From assembly GCA_012813795.1 (NCBI GenBank), contig GCA_012813795.1_4087.1: DNA of 64,000 nucleotides. One strand, 5' to 3'. Shown here piece after piece: positions 273 through 64,000 of the stretch. This stretch comes from a phage. The position numbers and the translations under genes are program-made. How positions within the stretch are numbered: position 1 is the stretch's first letter; each line of letters starts with the position of its first letter. The notes under the pieces were generated by a model. That model was not told the origin of the DNA and did no database searches. It saw only the letters and a program-made list of their open reading frames with translations.

Positions 273-2171
273 TTAAAAGAATATATCACGTAGTAAATGT
301 TCTATAACAGGTGCTGTCCAGCCATTACCAAGCATTTTGTACGCTTGTGTTGAACTACTAACTTTGAAGTAGTTTACATCAATTCCTTGCAACATGCAAC
401 ACTCTTGTACTGTTAAATGACGATAGTCCACATTTCGTTTACCCTTCTCAATCAGGAAGTTCCTGTTGATATCAGGGTCTTTGAAAACGATTTGTCTTCT
501 TGACTTATTGAAGTACTGATTCGGATCTCCACCCTTGAAGTAGTTTGCGTCAATGCAATATGATTTATCACGATCAGTATACCAATTACCAGTTAGTATA
601 TCTTGTAATTTTGGTGCTAAAATAAGAGGTTTTGGAATAAACAACTTATCCGAGCTATACCAGTAGTAACGTTGGCGATAATGTGCTGTATAATTTTGTG
701 AATTTATCAAAATTGGTGTCATTTCCAACACGCCATTGATATAATCCTTGAAATCTTCCTTCATCTTAACATTCTCAAAAAGAACTTTCAAGTTAGGATT
801 GAGACTTTTTATGTGCTGGTAAATATCAACCATTGTATGGAATAACATACCACGAGGATCATTCACACCGCCTTGTTTCCCAGCAACTGACCACGCTTGG
901 CAGTTATGAACTACAATATTGTTCGCCGTATATGTGTTATCTACTGCAACTTCAATATTGTAAACGGTTTTCCATTCTCCGGTTGTGGTGTTCGATTTAA
1001 CACCTTTTACCCATGAATATGACCCATCATCATAGAATGCTTCATCTTTTCGGTGCTTTTCTTTTTTGTATGTTAATACGTAATACGGCTTCTGATTAAC
1101 AACACGTTCTTCTATAACTTTTGTTTCAGACGGTTTAAAGTATGTTATGTTAGAATGACGACCATACACATTCATAATTAGTTGTTGTATACCAAGAATA
1201 ACATTCTTTGATGTTGATGTAAATTTTAAACAATCATCTTTCTTGTCATGGTGACCATCTGCGTCAAAATAACCATCAATGAATGCTTTCTGATTAGCGA
1301 TACTTTCAGTGAAAAGTGTGGGGTGTACTTGTTTATTTGAAGCACCCTTACCCATTTGTTCACAAAATTCAACTAGTTCTTTTGAACAAATATAGAATTT
1401 ATAAGATGTTCTTTCTTTAACAAAATTATATTTCATATTCATACCATCAAAACATGAAACCAATTCATCAAATTCATCATGAGCACAGCAAATAAAAACA
1501 CGATATTGATAACTATTTTTTCTATTTTGTCGTTTTACTTTGTAAGTCCATCCATCACCCATAAATCTACCCATGAAATACCAAAAGCTTTCACTCTTGT
1601 TATGTTGAAAATTCACATTACAACGAACATTACATATAGCATGTTCTTCTGTGAGTTCATGTGCATCGATCCATGTAGGTTCTGTATATTCACGAACATA
1701 TTGTCGTTTTTCATTATCCCACTTCTTGCTCATTTTTCTCGCATAAAATGGATGATTATCAGTGCATTCAATTGGTATATGTCCCTGACCTGTGATGATT
1801 CTTGTTGGTGCAATCTTGCTACCAATACTCAATACTTTTTGGTATTGTCCAGTGTGTGTAAGAACCATATCACCAATTTTTATATCTTTTATATCTTTAT
1901 GACCTTCATTTGTCATGATCATGGTTCCTGCTGGGAAGCAAGGAAAACCACCCATCAGAAGATCTATCTTGTCCCATTCGATATCCCATTCTTTCCATCT
2001 AGTTACATCACCCAATTGGATGATATCAGGAAAGTTAGCCTGGGATTCAGCTATAGCAAATTTATCAATTTCAGATGAGTAGTACTTTTCAACTGGTATT
2101 CCTGCACTTTGCAAGGCCATATACCCAACACTCATCCCATTGAATAGTGATAGTACACGTATCGGTTCCAT
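273..2171 (-). CDS. C5-cytosine DNA methyltransferase interrupted by an intein
   Basis: Motif I LSLFNGMSVGY; after intein removal GGFP-CQAWSVAG reconstitutes the PCQ catalytic motif; ENV motif, QECCMLQG and GNGWTAPV C-terminal motifs; exteins total 286 aa. Confidence 0.85.
   Translation of the reverse strand: MEPIRVLSLFNGMSVGYMALQSAGIPVEKYYSSEIDKFAIAESQANFPDIIQLGDVTRWKEWDIEWDKIDLLMGGFPCFPAGTMIMTNEGHKDIKDIKIGDMVLTHTGQYQKVLSIGSKIAPTRIITGQGHIPIECTDNHPFYARKMSKKWDNEKRQYVREYTEPTWIDAHELTEEHAICNVRCNVNFQHNKSESFWYFMGRFMGDGWTYKVKRQNRKNSYQYRVFICCAHDEFDELVSCFDGMNMKYNFVKERTSYKFYICSKELVEFCEQMGKGASNKQVHPTLFTESIANQKAFIDGYFDADGHHDKKDDCLKFTSTSKNVILGIQQLIMNVYGRHSNITYFKPSETKVIEERVVNQKPYYVLTYKKEKHRKDEAFYDDGSYSWVKGVKSNTTTGEWKTVYNIEVAVDNTYTANNIVVHNCQAWSVAGKQGGVNDPRGMLFHTMVDIYQHIKSLNPNLKVLFENVKMKEDFKDYINGVLEMTPILINSQNYTAHYRQRYYWYSSDKLFIPKPLILAPKLQDILTGNWYTDRDKSYCIDANYFKGGDPNQYFNKSRRQIVFKDPDINRNFLIEKGKRNVDYRHLTVQECCMLQGIDVNYFKVSSSTQAYKMLGNGWTAPVIEHLLRDIFF
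903..1940 (-). mobile_element. intein (346 aa) with LAGLIDADG homing-endonuclease domain
   Basis: Starts CFPAGTMIMT (block A), TDNH block B, two LAGLIDADG-like motifs FMGRFMGDGW and AFIDGYFDADGH, ends VVHN followed by +1 Cys. Confidence 0.75.
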
Positions 2172-2192: not shown

Positions 2193-2220
2193 AATACTGG
2201 ACGAATATTCGCCCAGTATT
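2193..2220. promoter_or_regulatory. 26-bp near-perfect inverted repeat in methyltransferase leader (operator or terminator hairpin)
   Basis: atactggacgaatattcgcccagtat, two mismatches from a perfect palindrome; followed on minus strand by T-rich run and AAAGGA SD of the MTase gene. Confidence 0.45.
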
Positions 2221-3050: not shown

Positions 3051-3473
3051 TTACCCTTTCAATTGTTTCTCGATATGGAATGTATTGTATATCTTGTTGT
3101 ACACAGTGTCAATAATTTTCTTAACGTCTGCTAACTCTTCGACAGTTGTGCACACATCACTGATAGTACTTAACTGAAACAACTCTTCTTCAGTACTGTA
3201 CAGTGTTATATCAAATTTGTTGCGAAGTTCATCTTCGATAACGTATTGATTTGTGACAGTATATGATGCAATTTCAACATCCAACAACTTATCACCTTCA
3301 AAAACATTATAAATGAACACAAATGTTAGTTCTTCACTCTCATCATCACTGTAGCTTATATATACATTGTAATTTTCACCATGAAAATCAAGATTGTGCT
3401 CAAACCTATTATCAGGTACTAGTGAATCTATAGGCATTCCCTTTAACAAATCAAAACAATCTCTTGGGTTCAT
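3051..3473 (-). CDS. EEx-FQ-SL paralog family member 1
   Basis: C-terminal TEEELFQLSTI motif shared with six neighbouring ORFs. Confidence 0.6.
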   Translation of the reverse strand: MNPRDCFDLLKGMPIDSLVPDNRFEHNLDFHGENYNVYISYSDDESEELTFVFIYNVFEGDKLLDVEIASYTVTNQYVIEDELRNKFDITLYSTEEELFQLSTISDVCTTVEELADVKKIIDTVYNKIYNTFHIEKQLKG

Positions 3474-3910
3474 TTTACATCCATTTGTCGCTGTTCATCA
3501 ATAAAAAAGATGTTAAAGATAGCTGAACGCATTTTTGTTAGCGTACTCATGAGATATTTTAAATCCTTGAAATCAATATTAAATGTTTGAACCAGTGATT
3601 CCTGGAAATACCCCTCTTCAGTAGTGCATTCACTTACATTTTGTACCTGATATATTTTGATAATATTATCATCACGAAGCATAATTTCTAAGTTATTGTT
3701 ATTAACATTGTGCACGATATACATCTGATCACCATATACCAGATTATTAACTGATAATGATAATACATTATTTTCAATAATAATCTTAAAGCAATTCTGA
3801 CCTACGTATGTGGTATTTTTAATTTGTTCTTCAGGATCAGTCAAACCATCGTTGATAAATTTAATTTTATTAAAAGTACTGATATATTTTTTAACTAATT
3901 TAATGTTCAT
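3470..3910 (-). CDS. EEx-FQ-SL paralog family member 2
   Basis: TTEEGYFQESLV motif. Confidence 0.6.
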   Translation of the reverse strand: MNIKLVKKYISTFNKIKFINDGLTDPEEQIKNTTYVGQNCFKIIIENNVLSLSVNNLVYGDQMYIVHNVNNNNLEIMLRDDNIIKIYQVQNVSECTTEEGYFQESLVQTFNIDFKDLKYLMSTLTKMRSAIFNIFFIDEQRQMDVK

Positions 3911-4287
3911 TGCTTTACCTTAGATAGAGCATAATTCATTATTGACTTGATTTTTTGTAAATTGTCATATGACATTACATGTTTTTCAATTAATGATAGT
4001 TGAAATAATTCTTCTTCAGTTGAATTCAAGTAAACTTCTGAACCATCATAATTTTCAAAATCATAAAGGTATGAAAGACGGTCATCTATATACCAACCAA
4101 TCCATTCAATGGTGTTTCTTTCTTTGAAAACACAAGTATATGGATTATCTCTTGAATCTAAGGTTATGGTTAAACGTAAACATGAATTTGATTGTTGTAC
4201 ACTCTGTCTCCCATAATATACAGTAACCTCATCGGTTTCAATTGATTTATACAAAGCATCAATTTTTCTATCCAATTCATCTACCAT
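3907..4287 (-). CDS. EEx-FQ-SL paralog family member 3
   Basis: STEEELFQLSLI motif. Confidence 0.6.
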   Translation of the reverse strand: MVDELDRKIDALYKSIETDEVTVYYGRQSVQQSNSCLRLTITLDSRDNPYTCVFKERNTIEWIGWYIDDRLSYLYDFENYDGSEVYLNSTEEELFQLSLIEKHVMSYDNLQKIKSIMNYALSKVKQ

Positions 4288-4691
4288 AATCTTACCCTTT
4301 TCAATGCTTTAACTTCGTCAGTGCACGGGAACACAACGAATCCAGTTAATGTTAGACCATCAAAATGGTTGAATCCATAATCATGAATCTTAGTTGCAGT
4401 GAATCCTTCAGCTTTCACTTTATCGAATAGATTAAGCATCTGTTCTTCAGATTTAGCCTTTAAGATAATCTTGCGGCGACCGTCCTGTACCCAAGTACTG
4501 AAATCGTTCAGGATCTTTTCATCTTCATCTCTTGGGTTCTCACCAACAGCATTACAACCACGAATTGATGTACCAGCAACTGTAACCGTGGACCAGATAG
4601 AATCAACCGCATGACCCGCCTGAGCAGCAAGCTTCCCAACTGGCATATCTAAGTCTTCACGAATGATTATGTAACATTTACTTACTGTCAT
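4281..4691 (-). CDS. peptidyl-tRNA hydrolase, Pth2 family
   Basis: YIIIREDLDMPVGKLAAQAGHAV resembles the Pth2 core (vvRtDLkMgkGKiaAQcsHAav); C-terminal pattern also similar; AAAGGAG SD. Confidence 0.75.
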   Translation of the reverse strand: MTVSKCYIIIREDLDMPVGKLAAQAGHAVDSIWSTVTVAGTSIRGCNAVGENPRDEDEKILNDFSTWVQDGRRKIILKAKSEEQMLNLFDKVKAEGFTATKIHDYGFNHFDGLTLTGFVVFPCTDEVKALKRVRLW

Positions 4692-5103
4692 CTACAATCT
4701 CCTTTTCATATTGCTCAAGTATCGAATAGATCTTATTGGAAATGTCCAATGTTTTAACATAATCACAGTACCTGATACACCCAAAATCATACAAAGTACT
4801 AACCATAAAGAATTCTTCTTCAGAGTACTTCTTTTCATTGAATGTAATGGTATTTGTAATTTTTCCAGATTCTGAATATTTTACATAGATAATACTACCA
4901 TTACTTATGTAATCTAATGTCTCTGAATACTTTTCAATACTAGAACTATGTCTAAATTGAATTCCTACAGATTTATCATACCAAAGAGATTTATTTCCGT
5001 CAGTAAGTATAGCATAATCAATCTTACGTTTATCATTGACACACATACCACAATCGGTAATTTTTAGTTTAGTGATATCAATATTCAACAGATCACTTAT
5101 CAT
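4678..5103 (-). CDS. EEx-FQ-SL paralog family member 4 (divergent)
   Basis: SEEEFFMVSTL variant of motif. Confidence 0.55.
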   Translation of the reverse strand: MISDLLNIDITKLKITDCGMCVNDKRKIDYAILTDGNKSLWYDKSVGIQFRHSSSIEKYSETLDYISNGSIIYVKYSESGKITNTITFNEKKYSEEEFFMVSTLYDFGCIRYCDYVKTLDISNKIYSILEQYEKEIVDDSK

Positions 5104-5527
5104 CCAATTCTCCGAATTTGGTTAGAGCAAACACTTTTGCCTCATCATGCAGTTTGTGAATTAGTATGATATTATCATATGTTAAATCTAGTACATTGTC
5201 AACAAGTGAACGTTGAAATAGTATCTCTTCAGATGTGATTTCATGGATGTTTTCTATCTTAATTTCATTGAATGTATCAGTTTCATTTTCTCGCGTACTC
5301 ATGATCAACGTACCACTCGTTGAAATGTATGATATCTTGGTATCCACACCATCAATGGTTGCGTACAGGCGAATTATTTCATATGAATCAGTTAATCTTA
5401 CATTAACCTTAATTTCATCCTCTGTACAAAACCACACACTTTTAGCAAAGAAATTGACACGTACTTTCATATCTTTAAGTTTATTATTTTGGAAATATTT
5501 TAGTACTTTTTTGAATGATATAATCAT
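5093..5527 (-). CDS. EEx-FQ-SL paralog family member 5
   Basis: TSEEILFQRSLV motif. Confidence 0.6.
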   Translation of the reverse strand: MIISFKKVLKYFQNNKLKDMKVRVNFFAKSVWFCTEDEIKVNVRLTDSYEIIRLYATIDGVDTKISYISTSGTLIMSTRENETDTFNEIKIENIHEITSEEILFQRSLVDNVLDLTYDNIILIHKLHDEAKVFALTKFGELDDK

Positions 5528-5544
5528 ATGTATCTCCTTTAGTA

Positions 5545-5940
5545 CTATATCGCATAGTACTTAAATAATGTTTTTAGATCATCAATAGTGAATGGTAAAT
5601 CCTCCAAAAGCAACTGTTGAAAGTAATGCTCTTCGTCAAGATACTTATGTATATTGATGAATGATTTTCTATGATAATCCGCTTTCCATGTAGGTCTTGT
5701 ACCCTTAGTATATTCAGTGAATACAATTTTGTCCATACCATAATCATACACGAATTCATTCTTTTCTGCAACCCCCTGATACTTTAGTTTTACCGGTTCT
5801 TTGCTGATAGAAAATTTATGCTCAGATGATTCATAATAGAATGATGATTGCTGATATTTTGATAAATCAATCTTTGAAAAATCATTTAGATAATAAGAAA
5901 GTTTAATTGTGACGATGCTGCCTATTCGACGACCCAACAT
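5545..5940 (-). CDS. EEx-FQ-SL paralog family member 6
   Basis: DEEHYFQQLLL motif; AGGA SD. Confidence 0.6.
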   Translation of the reverse strand: MLGRRIGSIVTIKLSYYLNDFSKIDLSKYQQSSFYYESSEHKFSISKEPVKLKYQGVAEKNEFVYDYGMDKIVFTEYTKGTRPTWKADYHRKSFINIHKYLDEEHYFQQLLLEDLPFTIDDLKTLFKYYAI

Positions 5941-5962
5941 ACTTTTATCCTAATATAAAAAA

Positions 5963-5979
5963 TGCCCCTGGGAGGGGCA
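5963..5979 (-). terminator. hairpin tgcccct-ggg-aggggca followed by T-run on minus strand
   Basis: 7-bp GC-rich stem, 3-nt loop, TTTTTTAT downstream on minus strand. Confidence 0.4.
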
Positions 5980-6089
5980 GTACGAAAAGATATAAAATGT
6001 ACAATAAGAAATGGAAAATATAATAAATTAATTTTATTATAGAAGGGAGGAAAAATAACATAATAATATGTTAGCCATTACTGGCATAA

Positions 6090-6641
6090 TTATTTATCAT
6101 TAAGCTCTTTTAATTTAGTCTGAACATCTAGTGTTAATTTTCTTAGTTTCTTAAAGACAAAAGCACTGTCATCTAGTTCAAGTTTCATACCATGTGTAAT
6201 GGCATAAAGAACTTCAGCTTTAGCCAAATCATGACGCATCCAATTACCATTCTTATAGAGAGTCATTACACAAAAAGGGCAAACACTTTCAGATGTTTGA
6301 TGACCAATAAAAACGGATTGTATCGTATCATGTTGGAAATTAATAAATGACTCGTTAATTTTTTGAATTTCTGCAATTACATCAAGTTTAGCATCCGTAT
6401 TAATAGCAAAAATATTGTTCCCGTTGTCATCAGTATTGATGTTTAGCTCTATATCAGAACCTATTTTGCGTACTGCCATTGTATAAAGCAATAACTCATA
6501 CATGTCATATGACGTTACATCACCGCTTGGTGCAGTAACGTTAAGGTTAACACCGTGATGTGTAACTTCAGTACTGAATCCTTCTTTATCTGCTAGGAAA
6601 TTTACAATTTGGTTCGTGAATTTTTGAATTTGTTCGATCAT
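6090..6641 (-). CDS. hypothetical protein
   Basis: ORF track; AAAGGAG SD upstream. Confidence 0.55.
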   Translation of the reverse strand: MIEQIQKFTNQIVNFLADKEGFSTEVTHHGVNLNVTAPSGDVTSYDMYELLLYTMAVRKIGSDIELNINTDDNGNNIFAINTDAKLDVIAEIQKINESFINFQHDTIQSVFIGHQTSESVCPFCVMTLYKNGNWMRHDLAKAEVLYAITHGMKLELDDSAFVFKKLRKLTLDVQTKLKELNDK

Positions 6642-6682
6642 ATTAAGTACTCCTTTACTTTGTCTTATTTAACAAATGAATA

Positions 6683-6706
6683 TAAGGCTCCCGATTGAGA
6701 GCCTTA
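6683..6706. terminator. hairpin taaggctc-ccgattga-gagcctta, T-rich on both sides
   Basis: 8-bp stem; downstream of gene 6719..7156. Confidence 0.4.
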
Positions 6707-6718
6707 TTTCTTTTTATA

Positions 6719-7156
6719 TTATGCGGTTTCTTCTTCGAACTTAGCGACGATATCAACCATTTCATTGATTAGTTTGATATGGTCATAAGTTACTGAACGG
6801 AAATCTACAACAAGTGACTGTTGGAAGAATTCTTCTTCTGGCAACCCACCATCAAAGTTGAGATCAACATTCTCATCATCATTAGTTGGTGCAACCTTGA
6901 TGTTGAAACTATTTTCATCAACAACCAGTTTAACTACACAACCCAAGCAGATAGATAGTACATATGCTGGTTTCTTAGCTGCTTCTTTACGGAAAGGTGC
7001 ACGAAGAGCACATACTACGCTACTAATTTCATCACCTTCTTCTTTATATTTGACGGTAATCATTAGCTCTTCAACTTTAATCGCTTCAATTACACGAGAA
7101 GGGTTTTCTGCGAAGAATGGGTTGTTACGGATTACTTGTTCAAGATTCATATTCAT
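6719..7156 (-). CDS. EEx-FQ-SL paralog family member 7
   Basis: LPEEEFFQQSLVVDF motif. Confidence 0.6.
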   Translation of the reverse strand: MNMNLEQVIRNNPFFAENPSRVIEAIKVEELMITVKYKEEGDEISSVVCALRAPFRKEAAKKPAYVLSICLGCVVKLVVDENSFNIKVAPTNDDENVDLNFDGGLPEEEFFQQSLVVDFRSVTYDHIKLINEMVDIVAKFEEETA

Positions 7157-8263: not shown

Positions 8264-8494
8264 TTATTCCTTAATATATGCATACGGCATAAAAACAACT
8301 TCAGCACCATCTACAGTATCAGCTATCACCTTAACAATACTTTCATTTTTGTTACATTGCCATACTTTTGTTATTTTATGCCTGAATACATTTCCATCTT
8401 TGACAATCCAGTACATGTTCATTTTAACAGTGCTTTCTTCACTTGGCACTAAAAGTTCATTTATTGGGGTTGCATCAAATGTTAGTTTGTTCAT
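8264..8494 (-). CDS. hypothetical protein (start uncertain; track gives 8545)
   Basis: Internal Met start reduces overlap with upstream gene. Confidence 0.35.
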   Translation of the reverse strand: MNKLTFDATPINELLVPSEESTVKMNMYWIVKDGNVFRHKITKVWQCNKNESIVKVIADTVDGAEVVFMPYAYIKE

Positions 8495-8822
8495 TTTTAT
8501 ATAAATCCAAAACATATTGTCCAAAATAAAGCTCAATAGCATCATTTACCATTTGAACCTCATTGCGATATATACCATTTCCACCACACACAGAACACAA
8601 ACACTGATACTGTGGTGTTTTTATTATAACACGACCAGCAGAAAATGACCTTATATCTTTTGCATAGTTCATCTCCATATATTCAAGTTCAAGAGTATGA
8701 TCTACATCCTTATTGTAACATATCCAACAAGTTCTTGAATGATTCATATCAGTTGAACCCCCATAAATGTGCAAATGAACTGTCATTTCTAACCAATTCT
8801 TTTGCATACGAACTAATTGCAT
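8475..8822 (-). CDS. small zinc-ribbon protein (CxxC pairs)
   Basis: CWIC ... CSVCG; resembles neighbour 8749..9024. Confidence 0.45.
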   Translation of the reverse strand: MQLVRMQKNWLEMTVHLHIYGGSTDMNHSRTCWICYNKDVDHTLELEYMEMNYAKDIRSFSAGRVIIKTPQYQCLCSVCGGNGIYRNEVQMVNDAIELYFGQYVLDLYKNEQTNI

Positions 8823-9024
8823 TCACAACCATAATATTAACACAATTCAACTCATGAAGAACAAGTTCATTACCACATAATGAACAAGATGTACTATAAA
8901 ATGGTGTTGGTAATTTTATATAGCCACCTCTTAATGGAAAGACTTGTTCCTCTATTGTCAACATTGTATCAGACGGAGTGACAAACATCTCACATTCAAG
9001 ACAACAAATTTTCACTTTATCCAT
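8749..9024 (-). CDS. small zinc-ribbon protein (CxxC pairs)
   Basis: CCLEC ... CSLCG. Confidence 0.45.
   Translation of the reverse strand: MDKVKICCLECEMFVTPSDTMLTIEEQVFPLRGGYIKLPTPFYSTSCSLCGNELVLHELNCVNIMVVNAISSYAKELVRNDSSFAHLWGFN

Positions 9025-29661: not shown

Positions 29662-32906
<3,245 letters not shown>

Positions 32907-60394: not shown

Positions 60395-64000
<3,606 letters not shown>

What the first reader, a model, noticed from the sequence alone, without database searches (positions are those of the whole stretch)
4281..4691. Phage-encoded Pth2-type peptidyl-tRNA hydrolase embedded in the paralog array
ORF 4281..4691 (136 aa) matches the Pth2 core: YIIIREDLDMPVGKLAAQAGHAV versus the Pth2 consensus vvRtDLkMgkGKiaAQcsHAav, with a matching C-terminal pattern. 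It has a strong AAAGGAG Shine-Dalgarno and sits between array members 3 and 4. A phage peptidyl-tRNA hydrolase could rescue stalled ribosomes or counter host defences that act on tRNA or translation.
Basis: partly seen in the sequence, partly recalled or inferred. Interest (0 to 1): 0.7.

Follow-up and report, generated by a model that had tools for sequence, protein, structure and literature searches.

The report
Jumbo-phage Pth2 peptidyl-tRNA hydrolase homologue
This is a real phage gene for an archaeal/eukaryotic-type (Pth2) peptidyl-tRNA hydrolase homologue, but it is already annotated and discussed for this group of giant phages; the only twist is that one of the three residues known to be needed for activity is changed from Thr to Asn.

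Summary
The ORF is real: 4281..4691 on the minus strand, 136 aa, AAAGGAG Shine-Dalgarno 7 nt upstream, overlapping both neighbouring genes. It matches Pfam PTH2 (E 2.6e-18, 66.7 bits against a cutoff of 23). An AlphaFold model (pLDDT 91) matches only solved Pth2/Bit1 structures. The window is 99% identical to Escherichia jumbo phage A4, where this gene (A4_114) is already annotated "peptidyl-tRNA hydrolase". Orthologues in RaK2, K64-1, GAP32 and CBB have been noted in papers since 2013, and a 2021 jumbo-phage comparison proposed a ribosome-rescue role. The finding is therefore correct but already known.

Three details go beyond the annotation.
- Two of the three residues essential in S. solfataricus Pth2 are kept (K18 as K20, D86 as D104). 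The third, T90, is Asn108 in nearly the whole jumbo-phage clade.
- The protein falls below both NCBIfam Pth2 equivalog cutoffs and has a longer alpha1-alpha2 segment than archaeal Pth2.
- The gene is accessory. It sits inside a seven-member paralogue array in A4, K64-1 and a metagenomic relative, while 121Q has the same array without it.

Hydrolase activity and any counter-defence role remain untested.

The parts
4281..4691 (-). pth2 coding sequence, 136 aa (orthologue of phage A4 gene A4_114)
   Evidence: ORF list; Pfam PTH2 E 2.6e-18; AF2 pLDDT 91 with only Pth2/Bit1 PDB hits; 99.3% identical to the A4 'peptidyl-tRNA hydrolase'
4699..4705 (-). Shine-Dalgarno AAAGGAG, 7-nt spacer to the ATG
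   Evidence: Read directly from the sequence
4632..4634 (-). Codon AAG for Lys20, equivalent to essential K18 of S. solfataricus Pth2
   Evidence: Alignment with 1xty; K in 154 of 155 relatives
4380..4382 (-). Codon GAT for Asp104, equivalent to essential D86
   Evidence: Alignment with 1xty; D in 152 of 155 relatives
4368..4370 (-). Codon AAC for Asn108, at the position of essential T90 (Thr replaced by Asn)
   Evidence: HMMER alignments to five solved Pth2 chains; T in 132 and N in 19 of 155 relatives
4503..4601 (-). Residues 31-63: lengthened alpha1-loop-alpha2 segment (34 residues against about 11-13 in archaeal Pth2)
   Evidence: PDB matches split into two stretches, 5-30 and 64-126; model helices 18-48 and 55-69 at pLDDT above 90; length distribution
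3907..4287 (-). Array paralogue immediately downstream (126 aa); its start overlaps the pth2 stop by 7 nt
   Evidence: phrog_36084, unknown function
4678..5103 (-). Array paralogue immediately upstream (141 aa); its end overlaps the pth2 start by 14 nt
   Evidence: phrog_24510, unknown function
3051..3910 (-). Two further array paralogues (3051-3473 and 3470-3910)
5093..5940 (-). Two further array paralogues (5093-5527 and 5545-5940)
5963..5979 (-). Terminator-like hairpin upstream of the gene block (consensus match only)
2193..2220 (-). Terminator-like hairpin downstream of the gene block; with the previous one it brackets a putative unit from 5940 to 2458 (consensus match only)

Best explanation
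The gene encodes a Pth2-family (PF01981) peptidyl-tRNA hydrolase homologue of a RaK2/121Q-like jumbo phage of E. coli. The most likely mechanism is as follows. The protein binds the acceptor end of peptidyl-tRNA or N-blocked aminoacyl-tRNA that has dropped off stalled or abortive ribosomes. The conserved Lys20-Asp104 pair, helped by Gln24, His27 and Asn108, then hydrolyses the ester bond and returns free tRNA to the pool. It would add to the host's single essential Pth1 while the phage monopolises translation. It is an accessory gene rather than a core one. SHOWN: the ORF and its translation signals; family and fold membership; the residue pattern; presence or absence across relatives. INFERRED: catalytic activity, substrate and benefit to the phage.
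For: Sequence and fold:
- Pfam PTH2 E 2.6e-18, 66.7 bits against a cutoff of 23, covering profile positions 2-103 of 115.
- AF2 model pLDDT 91, pTM 0.84.
- The 14 Foldseek PDB hits with E below 1e-3 are all Pth2 or Bit1 (2zv3, 1rlk, 3erj, 1wn2, 1q7s, 1xty, 1rzw). All but the 1rzw NMR model have target-normalised TM 0.72-0.85, and the next hit has E 0.58.
- Viral Pth2 models are matched as well.

Active site:
- K20 and D104 align with K18 and D86 of S. solfataricus Pth2. The 1xty sequence and numbering were verified and the alignment made.
- Family-invariant R11, D13, Q24, H27, W67, K74, T114, T116 and P122 are retained.
- K20, Q24, H27, D104, T114 and T116 stay invariant across clade members down to about 42% identity, as expected for a maintained active site.
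- The yeast Pth2(D174A) mutant is described as hydrolase-inactive (PMC9892010). That D174 is the same conserved Asp is my inference.

Expression:
- Strong SD and overlapping, probably coupled, gene boundaries.

Context:
- The GAP32 orthologue lies between tRNA-Thr and tRNA-Leu genes.
- The same window encodes an IF3 homologue and a KTSC protein.
- Pth2 genes are recurrent in large phages.
- A ribosome-rescue role was already proposed for jumbo-phage PTH2 (PMC7824862).
Against: - The third residue essential in S. solfataricus Pth2, T90, proposed there as a possible nucleophile (Fromant et al. 2005, cited from my own knowledge; the paper is not in the library), is Asn108 here.
- The protein scores below both NCBIfam Pth2 equivalog cutoffs: 64.9 against 126 and 62.7 against 82.
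- No phage Pth2 has been tested biochemically in the literature I could search.
- 121Q-type relatives on the same host species do without the gene, so it is dispensable.
- There are no tRNA genes in this window.
Confidence: 0.7

Rival explanations
1. It is a Pth2-fold protein whose chemistry or substrate has shifted because of the Thr-to-Asn change and the lengthened helical hairpin. It could be a weak or inactive hydrolase that mainly binds tRNA or ribosomes. Alternatively it could be specialised for another ester, such as N-acetyl-aminoacyl-tRNA or formyl-Met-tRNAfMet, which host Pth1 handles poorly.
For: N108 replaces the essential T90. Asn is fixed across the RaK2/GAP32/A4 clade, so it is a maintained state and not a sequencing error. 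The protein is below the equivalog cutoffs. The alpha1-alpha2 segment is about 20 residues longer than in archaeal Pth2 and is confidently modelled. In archaeal Pth2, alpha1 forms the dimer interface (own knowledge).
Against: All other family-invariant residues, including K20, D104, Q24 and H27, remain invariant in the clade, which is not expected after loss of catalysis. A 66%-identical positional orthologue (P0003) in the same genomic slot has Thr and nests inside the Asn clade. Asn also recurs in several other branches. Thr and Asn therefore look interchangeable. Long alpha1-alpha2 segments are also common among Thr-type relatives.
Confidence: 0.2
2. It is a dedicated counter-defence factor. 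It reverses damage from host toxins that act on charged tRNA, for example GNAT toxins of the TacT/AtaT/ItaT type that N-acetylate aminoacyl-tRNA. Or it clears peptidyl-tRNA left by anticodon nucleases. This overlaps with the best explanation, since the chemistry is the same but the purpose is narrower.
For: Pth1 is shown to detoxify TacT-acetylated aminoacyl-tRNA (PMC9241777). The gene shows presence/absence variation between related phages, as accessory counter-defence genes typically do. It sits among fast-evolving small paralogues of unknown function. A link to tRNA-cleaving conflicts was suggested in PMC7824862.
Against: There is no direct evidence. No PADLOC or defence-related hit was found for it or its two neighbours. 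Orthologues are spread over many jumbo-phage genera on different hosts, which fits a general translation-support role equally well.
Confidence: 0.15
3. It is a chance ORF or a non-functional remnant.
For: None beyond the general caveat that an ORF list is mechanical.
Against: Profile E-values of 1e-18 to 1e-30. There are 34 invariant columns among 10 homologues at 42-73% identity. The ORF is intact with an SD. It occupies a conserved syntenic slot in K64-1 and a metagenomic contig.
Confidence: 0.01

Closest known systems
Escherichia phage A4 gene A4_114 (USL83781.1, 'peptidyl-tRNA hydrolase') and its orthologues in RaK2, K64-1 (gp231), GAP32 (gp382), CBB (gp392), Serratia phage BF, the Erwinia pEa_SNUABM phages and Salmonella phage Munch (phrog_1866)
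   Same: 99.3% identical to A4_114 and 40-60% identical to the others over the full length. It occupies the same slot inside the paralogue array as in K64-1. The clade signature is the same: Asn at the T90 position, GRRKI, and a C-terminal KR.RLW. These genes are already annotated as PTH2 and discussed in PMC3622015, PMC5259590 and PMC7824862.
   Different: Essentially nothing; this is the same gene. GAP32-type members carry an extra 8-residue loop and a shorter alpha1-alpha2 segment.
Archaeal Pth2 (S. solfataricus 1xty, M. jannaschii 2zv3, P. horikoshii 1wn2, A. fulgidus 3erj) and human PTH2/Bit1 (1q7s); EC 3.1.1.29, PF01981
   Same: The same alpha/beta fold (target-normalised TM 0.72-0.85). 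The R-x-D-L-x-M-x-x-G-K-x-x-A-Q-x-x-H-A N-terminal motif is conserved. The K18/D86 equivalents and the T-x-T-x-x-x-x-P strand are conserved.
   Different: Only 20-28% identity. T90 is replaced by Asn108. The alpha1-alpha2 segment is about 20 residues longer. The C-terminus is basic (KRVRLW). The protein scores below the NCBIfam equivalog cutoffs. It is encoded by a phage of a bacterium whose own enzyme is the unrelated Pth1.
Bacterial Pth1 (PF01195), the host's essential peptidyl-tRNA hydrolase
   Same: The presumed reaction and substrate class are the same.
   Different: There is no sequence or fold relationship. The Pfam scan returned only PTH2, and no Pth1 structure appears among the fold hits.

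Membership tests
Pth2 family (Pfam PF01981) | Profile match above Pfam's gathering score over most of the domain | tested here: met
   66.7 bits against a cutoff of 23, E 2.6e-18, profile positions 2-103 of 115
Pth2 family (Pfam PF01981) | Pth2 alpha/beta fold | tested here: met
   AF2 model pLDDT 91. All 14 significant PDB hits are Pth2 or Bit1; target-normalised TM is 0.72-0.85 for 13 of them and 0.48 for the 1rzw NMR model.
Catalytically validated Pth2 enzymes (S. solfataricus reference) | Lys equivalent to K18 (G-K of helix alpha1) | tested here: met
   K20; 1xty numbering verified; alignment; K in 154 of 155 relatives
Catalytically validated Pth2 enzymes (S. solfataricus reference) | Asp equivalent to D86 (D-x-G motif) | tested here: met
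   D104
Catalytically validated Pth2 enzymes (S. solfataricus reference) | Thr equivalent to T90 (D-x-G-x-T) | tested here: not met
   Asn108, codon AAC at 4368-4370. T in 132 and N in 19 of 155 relatives. I therefore file the protein as a Pth2-family homologue of an Asn-variant clade, not as a validated enzyme.
Archaeal-type Pth2 equivalogs (NCBIfam NF003314 / TIGR00283) | Score above the curated equivalog cutoff | tested here: not met
   64.9 against 126 and 62.7 against 82 bits
Pth2 enzymes (EC 3.1.1.29) | Hydrolysis of peptidyl- or N-acetyl-aminoacyl-tRNA; complementation of E. coli pth(ts) | not testable with these tools
   Needs wet-lab work. No published test of any phage Pth2 was found.
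Pth2 enzymes | Homodimer through helix alpha1 | not tested
   Only a monomer was modelled. Alpha1 is lengthened here.
Jumbo-phage Pth2 clade (phrog_1866; RaK2, K64-1, GAP32, A4) | Full-length match to the clade, with shared synteny | tested here: met
   phrog_1866 E 6.7e-30 over positions 7-125 of 126. 40-99% identity over at least 97% of the length. Same slot as K64-1 gp231 and as metagenomic contig L005.
Bacterial Pth1 (PF01195) | Any profile or fold similarity | tested here: not met
   Not reported by the Pfam scan at E up to 1 and absent from the fold hits
Known anti-phage defence components (PADLOC) | Profile match | tested here: not met
   No hit for pth2 or its two neighbours

The most novel reading that the evidence does not exclude
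The Asn-for-Thr jumbo-phage clade may be a true mechanistic variant of Pth2. One possibility is that it is fully active, which would show that the residue proposed as the Pth2 nucleophile is not one. The other is that it has been retuned towards substrates the host Pth1 handles poorly, such as toxin-acetylated aminoacyl-tRNA or initiator tRNA species, making it a phage countermeasure against translation-targeting toxin-antitoxin or abortive-infection systems.
Probability: 0.15. Interest if true: 0.55.

Novelty: already known. Interest (0 to 1): 0.2.

Why it matters
As a predicted phage Pth2 it adds nothing new, because the gene is already annotated and the family has been discussed for over a decade. 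Two things have residual value. First, no phage Pth2 appears to have been tested, so its activity and its benefit to the phage are open questions that are easy to test. Second, the natural Thr/Asn alternation at the proposed catalytic Thr, between orthologues in the same genomic slot, is a ready-made experiment on the unresolved Pth2 mechanism. The clean presence/absence between A4 and 121Q also offers a simple genetic handle for asking what the gene does during infection.

Tried and rejected
1. A second Pth2-fold paralogue. A BFVD hit to a 107-aa RaK2 'peptidyl-tRNA hydrolase' at 12% identity suggested one. However, tblastn with archaeal Pth2 finds only one place per RaK2 or A4 genome, at the same locus. 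A family HMM also finds only this ORF in all six frames of the window. Rejected.
2. A divergent Pth2 hidden in 121Q, where gp84 is also 136 aa. There is no Pfam hit and no tblastn hit; gp84 is an array paralogue. Rejected.
3. The fold of the flanking paralogues as a clue to function. AF2 with the 7-sequence alignment gave pLDDT 50, so no fold search was attempted. Pfam gave nothing and PHROGs only 'unknown function'.
4. A link to defence systems. PADLOC returned no hits.
5. A prophage or host origin. There is no match in 5,426 complete E. coli genomes.
6. Recent horizontal transfer judged from composition. The gene's GC is 40.9%, against 27-33% for its neighbours, but its GC3 is only 34%. Most of the difference is therefore amino-acid composition, and the result is inconclusive.
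7. The primary Pth2 biochemistry papers (Fromant 2003 and 2005, Rosas-Sandoval 2002, Powers 2005) are not held in the library. The K18/D86/T90 statement therefore rests on my own knowledge. Only the numbering was verified, against the 1xty sequence.
8. The afdb50 fold library was unavailable.

Full report
**Observation**

The ORF reported at 4281..4691 is real but lies on the minus strand. It runs from an ATG at 4691 to a stop at 4281 and encodes 136 aa. Residues 7-29 are the quoted YIIIREDLDMPVGKLAAQAGHAV. The upstream minus-strand sequence reads ...ATGAAAAGGAGATTGTAG|ATG, which places an AAAGGAG Shine-Dalgarno at 4699-4705, 7 nt before the start. The gene overlaps the end of the upstream gene (4678..5103) by 14 nt. 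Its stop overlaps the start of the downstream gene (3907..4287) by 7 nt. This is the tight packing of a co-translated block. Terminator-like hairpins on the same strand at 5979-5963 and 2220-2193 bracket a possible unit from 5940 to 2458, but these are consensus matches only.

**Identity**

- Pfam PTH2 (PF01981) matches at E 2.6e-18, 66.7 bits against a gathering score of 23, over profile positions 2-103 of 115.
- PHROGs gives phrog_1866, labelled 'unknown function', at E 6.7e-30.
- Sequence search of the PDB finds seven Pth2 or Bit1 entries, led by 2zv3 at E 3.4e-13. The match splits into residues 5-30 and 64-126.
- An AlphaFold2 model built on a 10-sequence alignment has mean pLDDT 91 and pTM 0.84.
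- Foldseek against the PDB returns 14 hits with E below 1e-3, all Pth2 or Bit1 (2zv3, 1rlk, 3erj, 1wn2, 1q7s, 1xty, 1rzw). Target-normalised TM is 0.72-0.85 for all except the 1rzw NMR model (0.48), and the next hit has E 0.58.

Family and fold membership are therefore secure. I put that part at about 0.97.

**Provenance and prior knowledge**

The window is 99% identical to Escherichia phage A4 (ON286972.1), a 355-kb jumbo phage filed under Asteriusvirus. In that record the gene is A4_114, product 'peptidyl-tRNA hydrolase'. An identical protein is also held by NCBI under the name 'aminoacyl-tRNA hydrolase'.

tblastn finds full-length orthologues at 30-60% identity in 40 phage records. They include RaK2, K64-1, Muenster, GAP32, CBB, Serratia BF, the Erwinia pEa_SNUABM phages, Salmonella Munch, Yersinia fHe-Yen9 and Xanthomonas XacN1, and many are already annotated as peptidyl-tRNA hydrolase.

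The literature has covered this gene family:
- The RaK2 paper noted a putative Pth2 in 2013 (PMC3622015).
- The CBB paper noted CBB_392 in 2017 (PMC5259590).
[quoted passage not shown] It suggests that the enzyme hydrolyses peptidyl-tRNA during ribosome rescue after tRNA cleavage (PMC7824862).

A search with archaeal Pth2 shows that Pth2 genes are widespread in other large phages too, including Myrna, Atu_ph07, phiM12, phiCD211 and the Enterococcus 140-kb phages. The finding as stated is therefore already known. I found no experimental test of any phage Pth2.

**Active-site check**

From my own knowledge (Fromant et al., Biochemistry 2005; the paper is not held in the library), K18, D86 and T90 of S. 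solfataricus Pth2 are the residues most important for activity. K18 and D86 form a salt bridge, and T90 was proposed as a possible nucleophile. I verified the numbering by recovering 1xty_A as an identical 120-residue match. K18 is the Lys of G-K, D86 is the Asp of E-D-A-G, and T90 is the Thr of G-K-T.

Aligned to the phage protein, K18 corresponds to K20, D86 to D104 and T90 to N108. The same Asn-for-Thr correspondence appears in the HMMER alignments to 2zv3, 1rlk, 1wn2, 1rzw and 24bt.

An exhaustive profile search found 2448 cluster representatives with E at or below 1e-3. Only three of them scored better than 1e-29, so the close clade is small. Among the 155 closest sequences:

| Position | Distribution |
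|---|---|
| 20 | K in 154 |
| 104 | D in 152 |
| 27 | H in 155 |
| 24 | Q in 153 |
| 108 | T in 132, N in 19 |

The jumbo-phage clade accounts for 13 of the 19 Asn cases. The protein also scores below both NCBIfam Pth2 equivalog cutoffs, at 64.9 against 126 and 62.7 against 82 bits.

**What the Asn means**

Three observations argue that the Asn form is a working state and not decay.
- Asn is maintained across clade members that are only about 40% identical, while K20, Q24, H27, D104, T114 and T116 stay invariant.
- P0003, a 66%-identical homologue on a metagenomic contig, sits in the same genomic slot. The order there is array paralogues, then Pth2, with a DNA methylase downstream. It has Thr, and it nests inside the Asn clade on a neighbour-joining tree.
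- Asn appears in several other branches of the family.

Thr and Asn therefore look interchangeable at this position. That fits a hydrogen-bonding or water-positioning role better than a covalent nucleophile. This is inference, and activity has to be measured.

**Other differences from archaeal Pth2**

The segment between helix alpha1 and the conserved Trp67 has 34 residues, against about 11-13 in archaeal enzymes. It is modelled confidently as an extension of alpha1 (residues 18-48) and alpha2 (residues 55-69). Similar lengths occur in many Thr-type relatives, so this is a feature of a wider branch and not unique to this phage. The clade also has a basic GRRKI motif and a basic C-terminal KR.RLW motif.

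**Genomic context**

The 'paralog array' is real. Seven minus-strand ORFs of 126-146 aa (3051-3473, 3470-3910, 3907-4287, 4678-5103, 5093-5527, 5545-5940, 6719-7156) share a C-terminal (T/S)EEE[LF]FQxSL...TYD.LK motif. The evidence is:
- pairwise blastp with E from 2e-6 to 2e-4 in a 20-protein database
- an alignment with invariant E-E..F
- cross-hits to shared PHROGs of unknown function
- no Pfam match

Pth2 is unrelated to these proteins and sits between the third and fourth members. K64-1 has the same arrangement: gp229 and gp230, then Pth2 as gp231, then gp232.

Phage 121Q has the same array as six contiguous genes, gp88 to gp83, with the same motifs. It has no Pth2, and gp86 and gp85 abut directly. 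None of the roughly 30 121Q-like records gives a tblastn hit.

The gene is thus a clean single-gene presence/absence difference. Given its presence in several genera, it was most simply lost in the 121Q lineage, and it is dispensable on E. coli.

Further context:
- In GAP32 the orthologue lies between tRNA-Thr and tRNA-Leu genes.
- This window has no tRNA genes. It does encode an IF3 homologue (32403-32906, minus strand) and a KTSC-domain protein (31551-31778, minus strand), the same translation-related set noted in PMC7824862.
- The gene's GC is 40.9%, against 27-33% for its neighbours, but its GC3 is only 34%. The difference is mainly amino-acid composition.

**Mechanism**

Best explanation (0.7): an active Pth2-type hydrolase that frees tRNA from dropped-off peptidyl-tRNA or N-blocked aminoacyl-tRNA. 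It would supplement the host's single essential Pth1 during infection.

A speculative link follows from the phage's own IF3. Peptidyl-tRNA is released from stalled ribosomes by RRF, EF-G and initiation factors (stated in PMC11994314). A phage IF3 could therefore increase the load that a Pth must clear.

Rivals:
- A shifted-specificity or weakened enzyme because of T90N and the lengthened hairpin (0.2).
- A narrower counter-defence purpose (0.15, overlapping with the best explanation). One example is reversing GNAT-toxin acetylation of aminoacyl-tRNA, which Pth1 is known to do (PMC9241777). Another is cleaning up after anticodon nucleases.
- A chance ORF (0.01).

There is no defence-system similarity and no copy in complete E. 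coli genomes.

**Verdict**

Novelty is nil for the gene as such, since it is already annotated and discussed. The Thr-to-Asn substitution at one of three essential positions, and the clean accessory status, are the only points that go beyond the existing annotation. They are cheap to test by pth(ts) complementation, by N108T kinetics, and by A4 deletion or 121Q insertion genetics. Interest 0.2.

Noticed in passing
window 273-2171 (-): A 632-aa C5 cytosine DNA methyltransferase is interrupted by an intein with a LAGLIDADG homing-endonuclease domain: Hint_2 at aa 77-133, LAGLIDADG_3 at aa 294-360, and the Intein_splicing match ending at aa 423. The sequence reads ...LLMGGFP|CFPAGTMIM...NNIVVHN|CQAWS. 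The intein therefore sits exactly in front of the catalytic Cys of the PCQ motif. The 121Q homologue gp91 is 286 aa without it.
   Followed up: partly
window 3051-7156 (-): An array of seven divergent paralogues (126-146 aa) shares a C-terminal (T/S)EEE[LF]FQxSL...TYD.LK motif. It is conserved as an array in 121Q (gp88 to gp83) and K64-1. There is no Pfam match and the PHROGs hits are of unknown function. AF2 with a 7-sequence alignment gave only pLDDT 50, so the fold and function remain unknown.
   Followed up: partly
window 32403-32906 (-) and 31551-31778 (-): The phage encodes a translation initiation factor IF3 homologue (IF3_N E 5.9e-17, IF3_C E 1.5e-13) and a KTSC-domain protein. These are further translation-related accessory genes in the same window as pth2.
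   Followed up: partly
window 8475-8822 (-) and 8749-9024 (-): Two adjacent small Cys-rich ORFs (CxxC pairs) are weak paralogues of each other (blastp E 1.7e-5). As listed, they overlap by 74 nt in different frames, so the start of the downstream one may be mis-set.
   Followed up: no
window 62970-64000 (-), and A4 record 230273-232584: The large terminase subunit is annotated in phage A4 as two separate CDS (A4_29 and A4_30) about 275 nt apart. This suggests a split or interrupted terminase gene, and the window ends inside it.
   Followed up: no
window 4281-4691 compared with its neighbours: pth2 has 40.9% GC, in the 98th percentile of 411-nt windows, while the flanking paralogues have 27-33%. 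GC3 is only 34%, so this is not clear evidence of recent transfer.
   Followed up: yes
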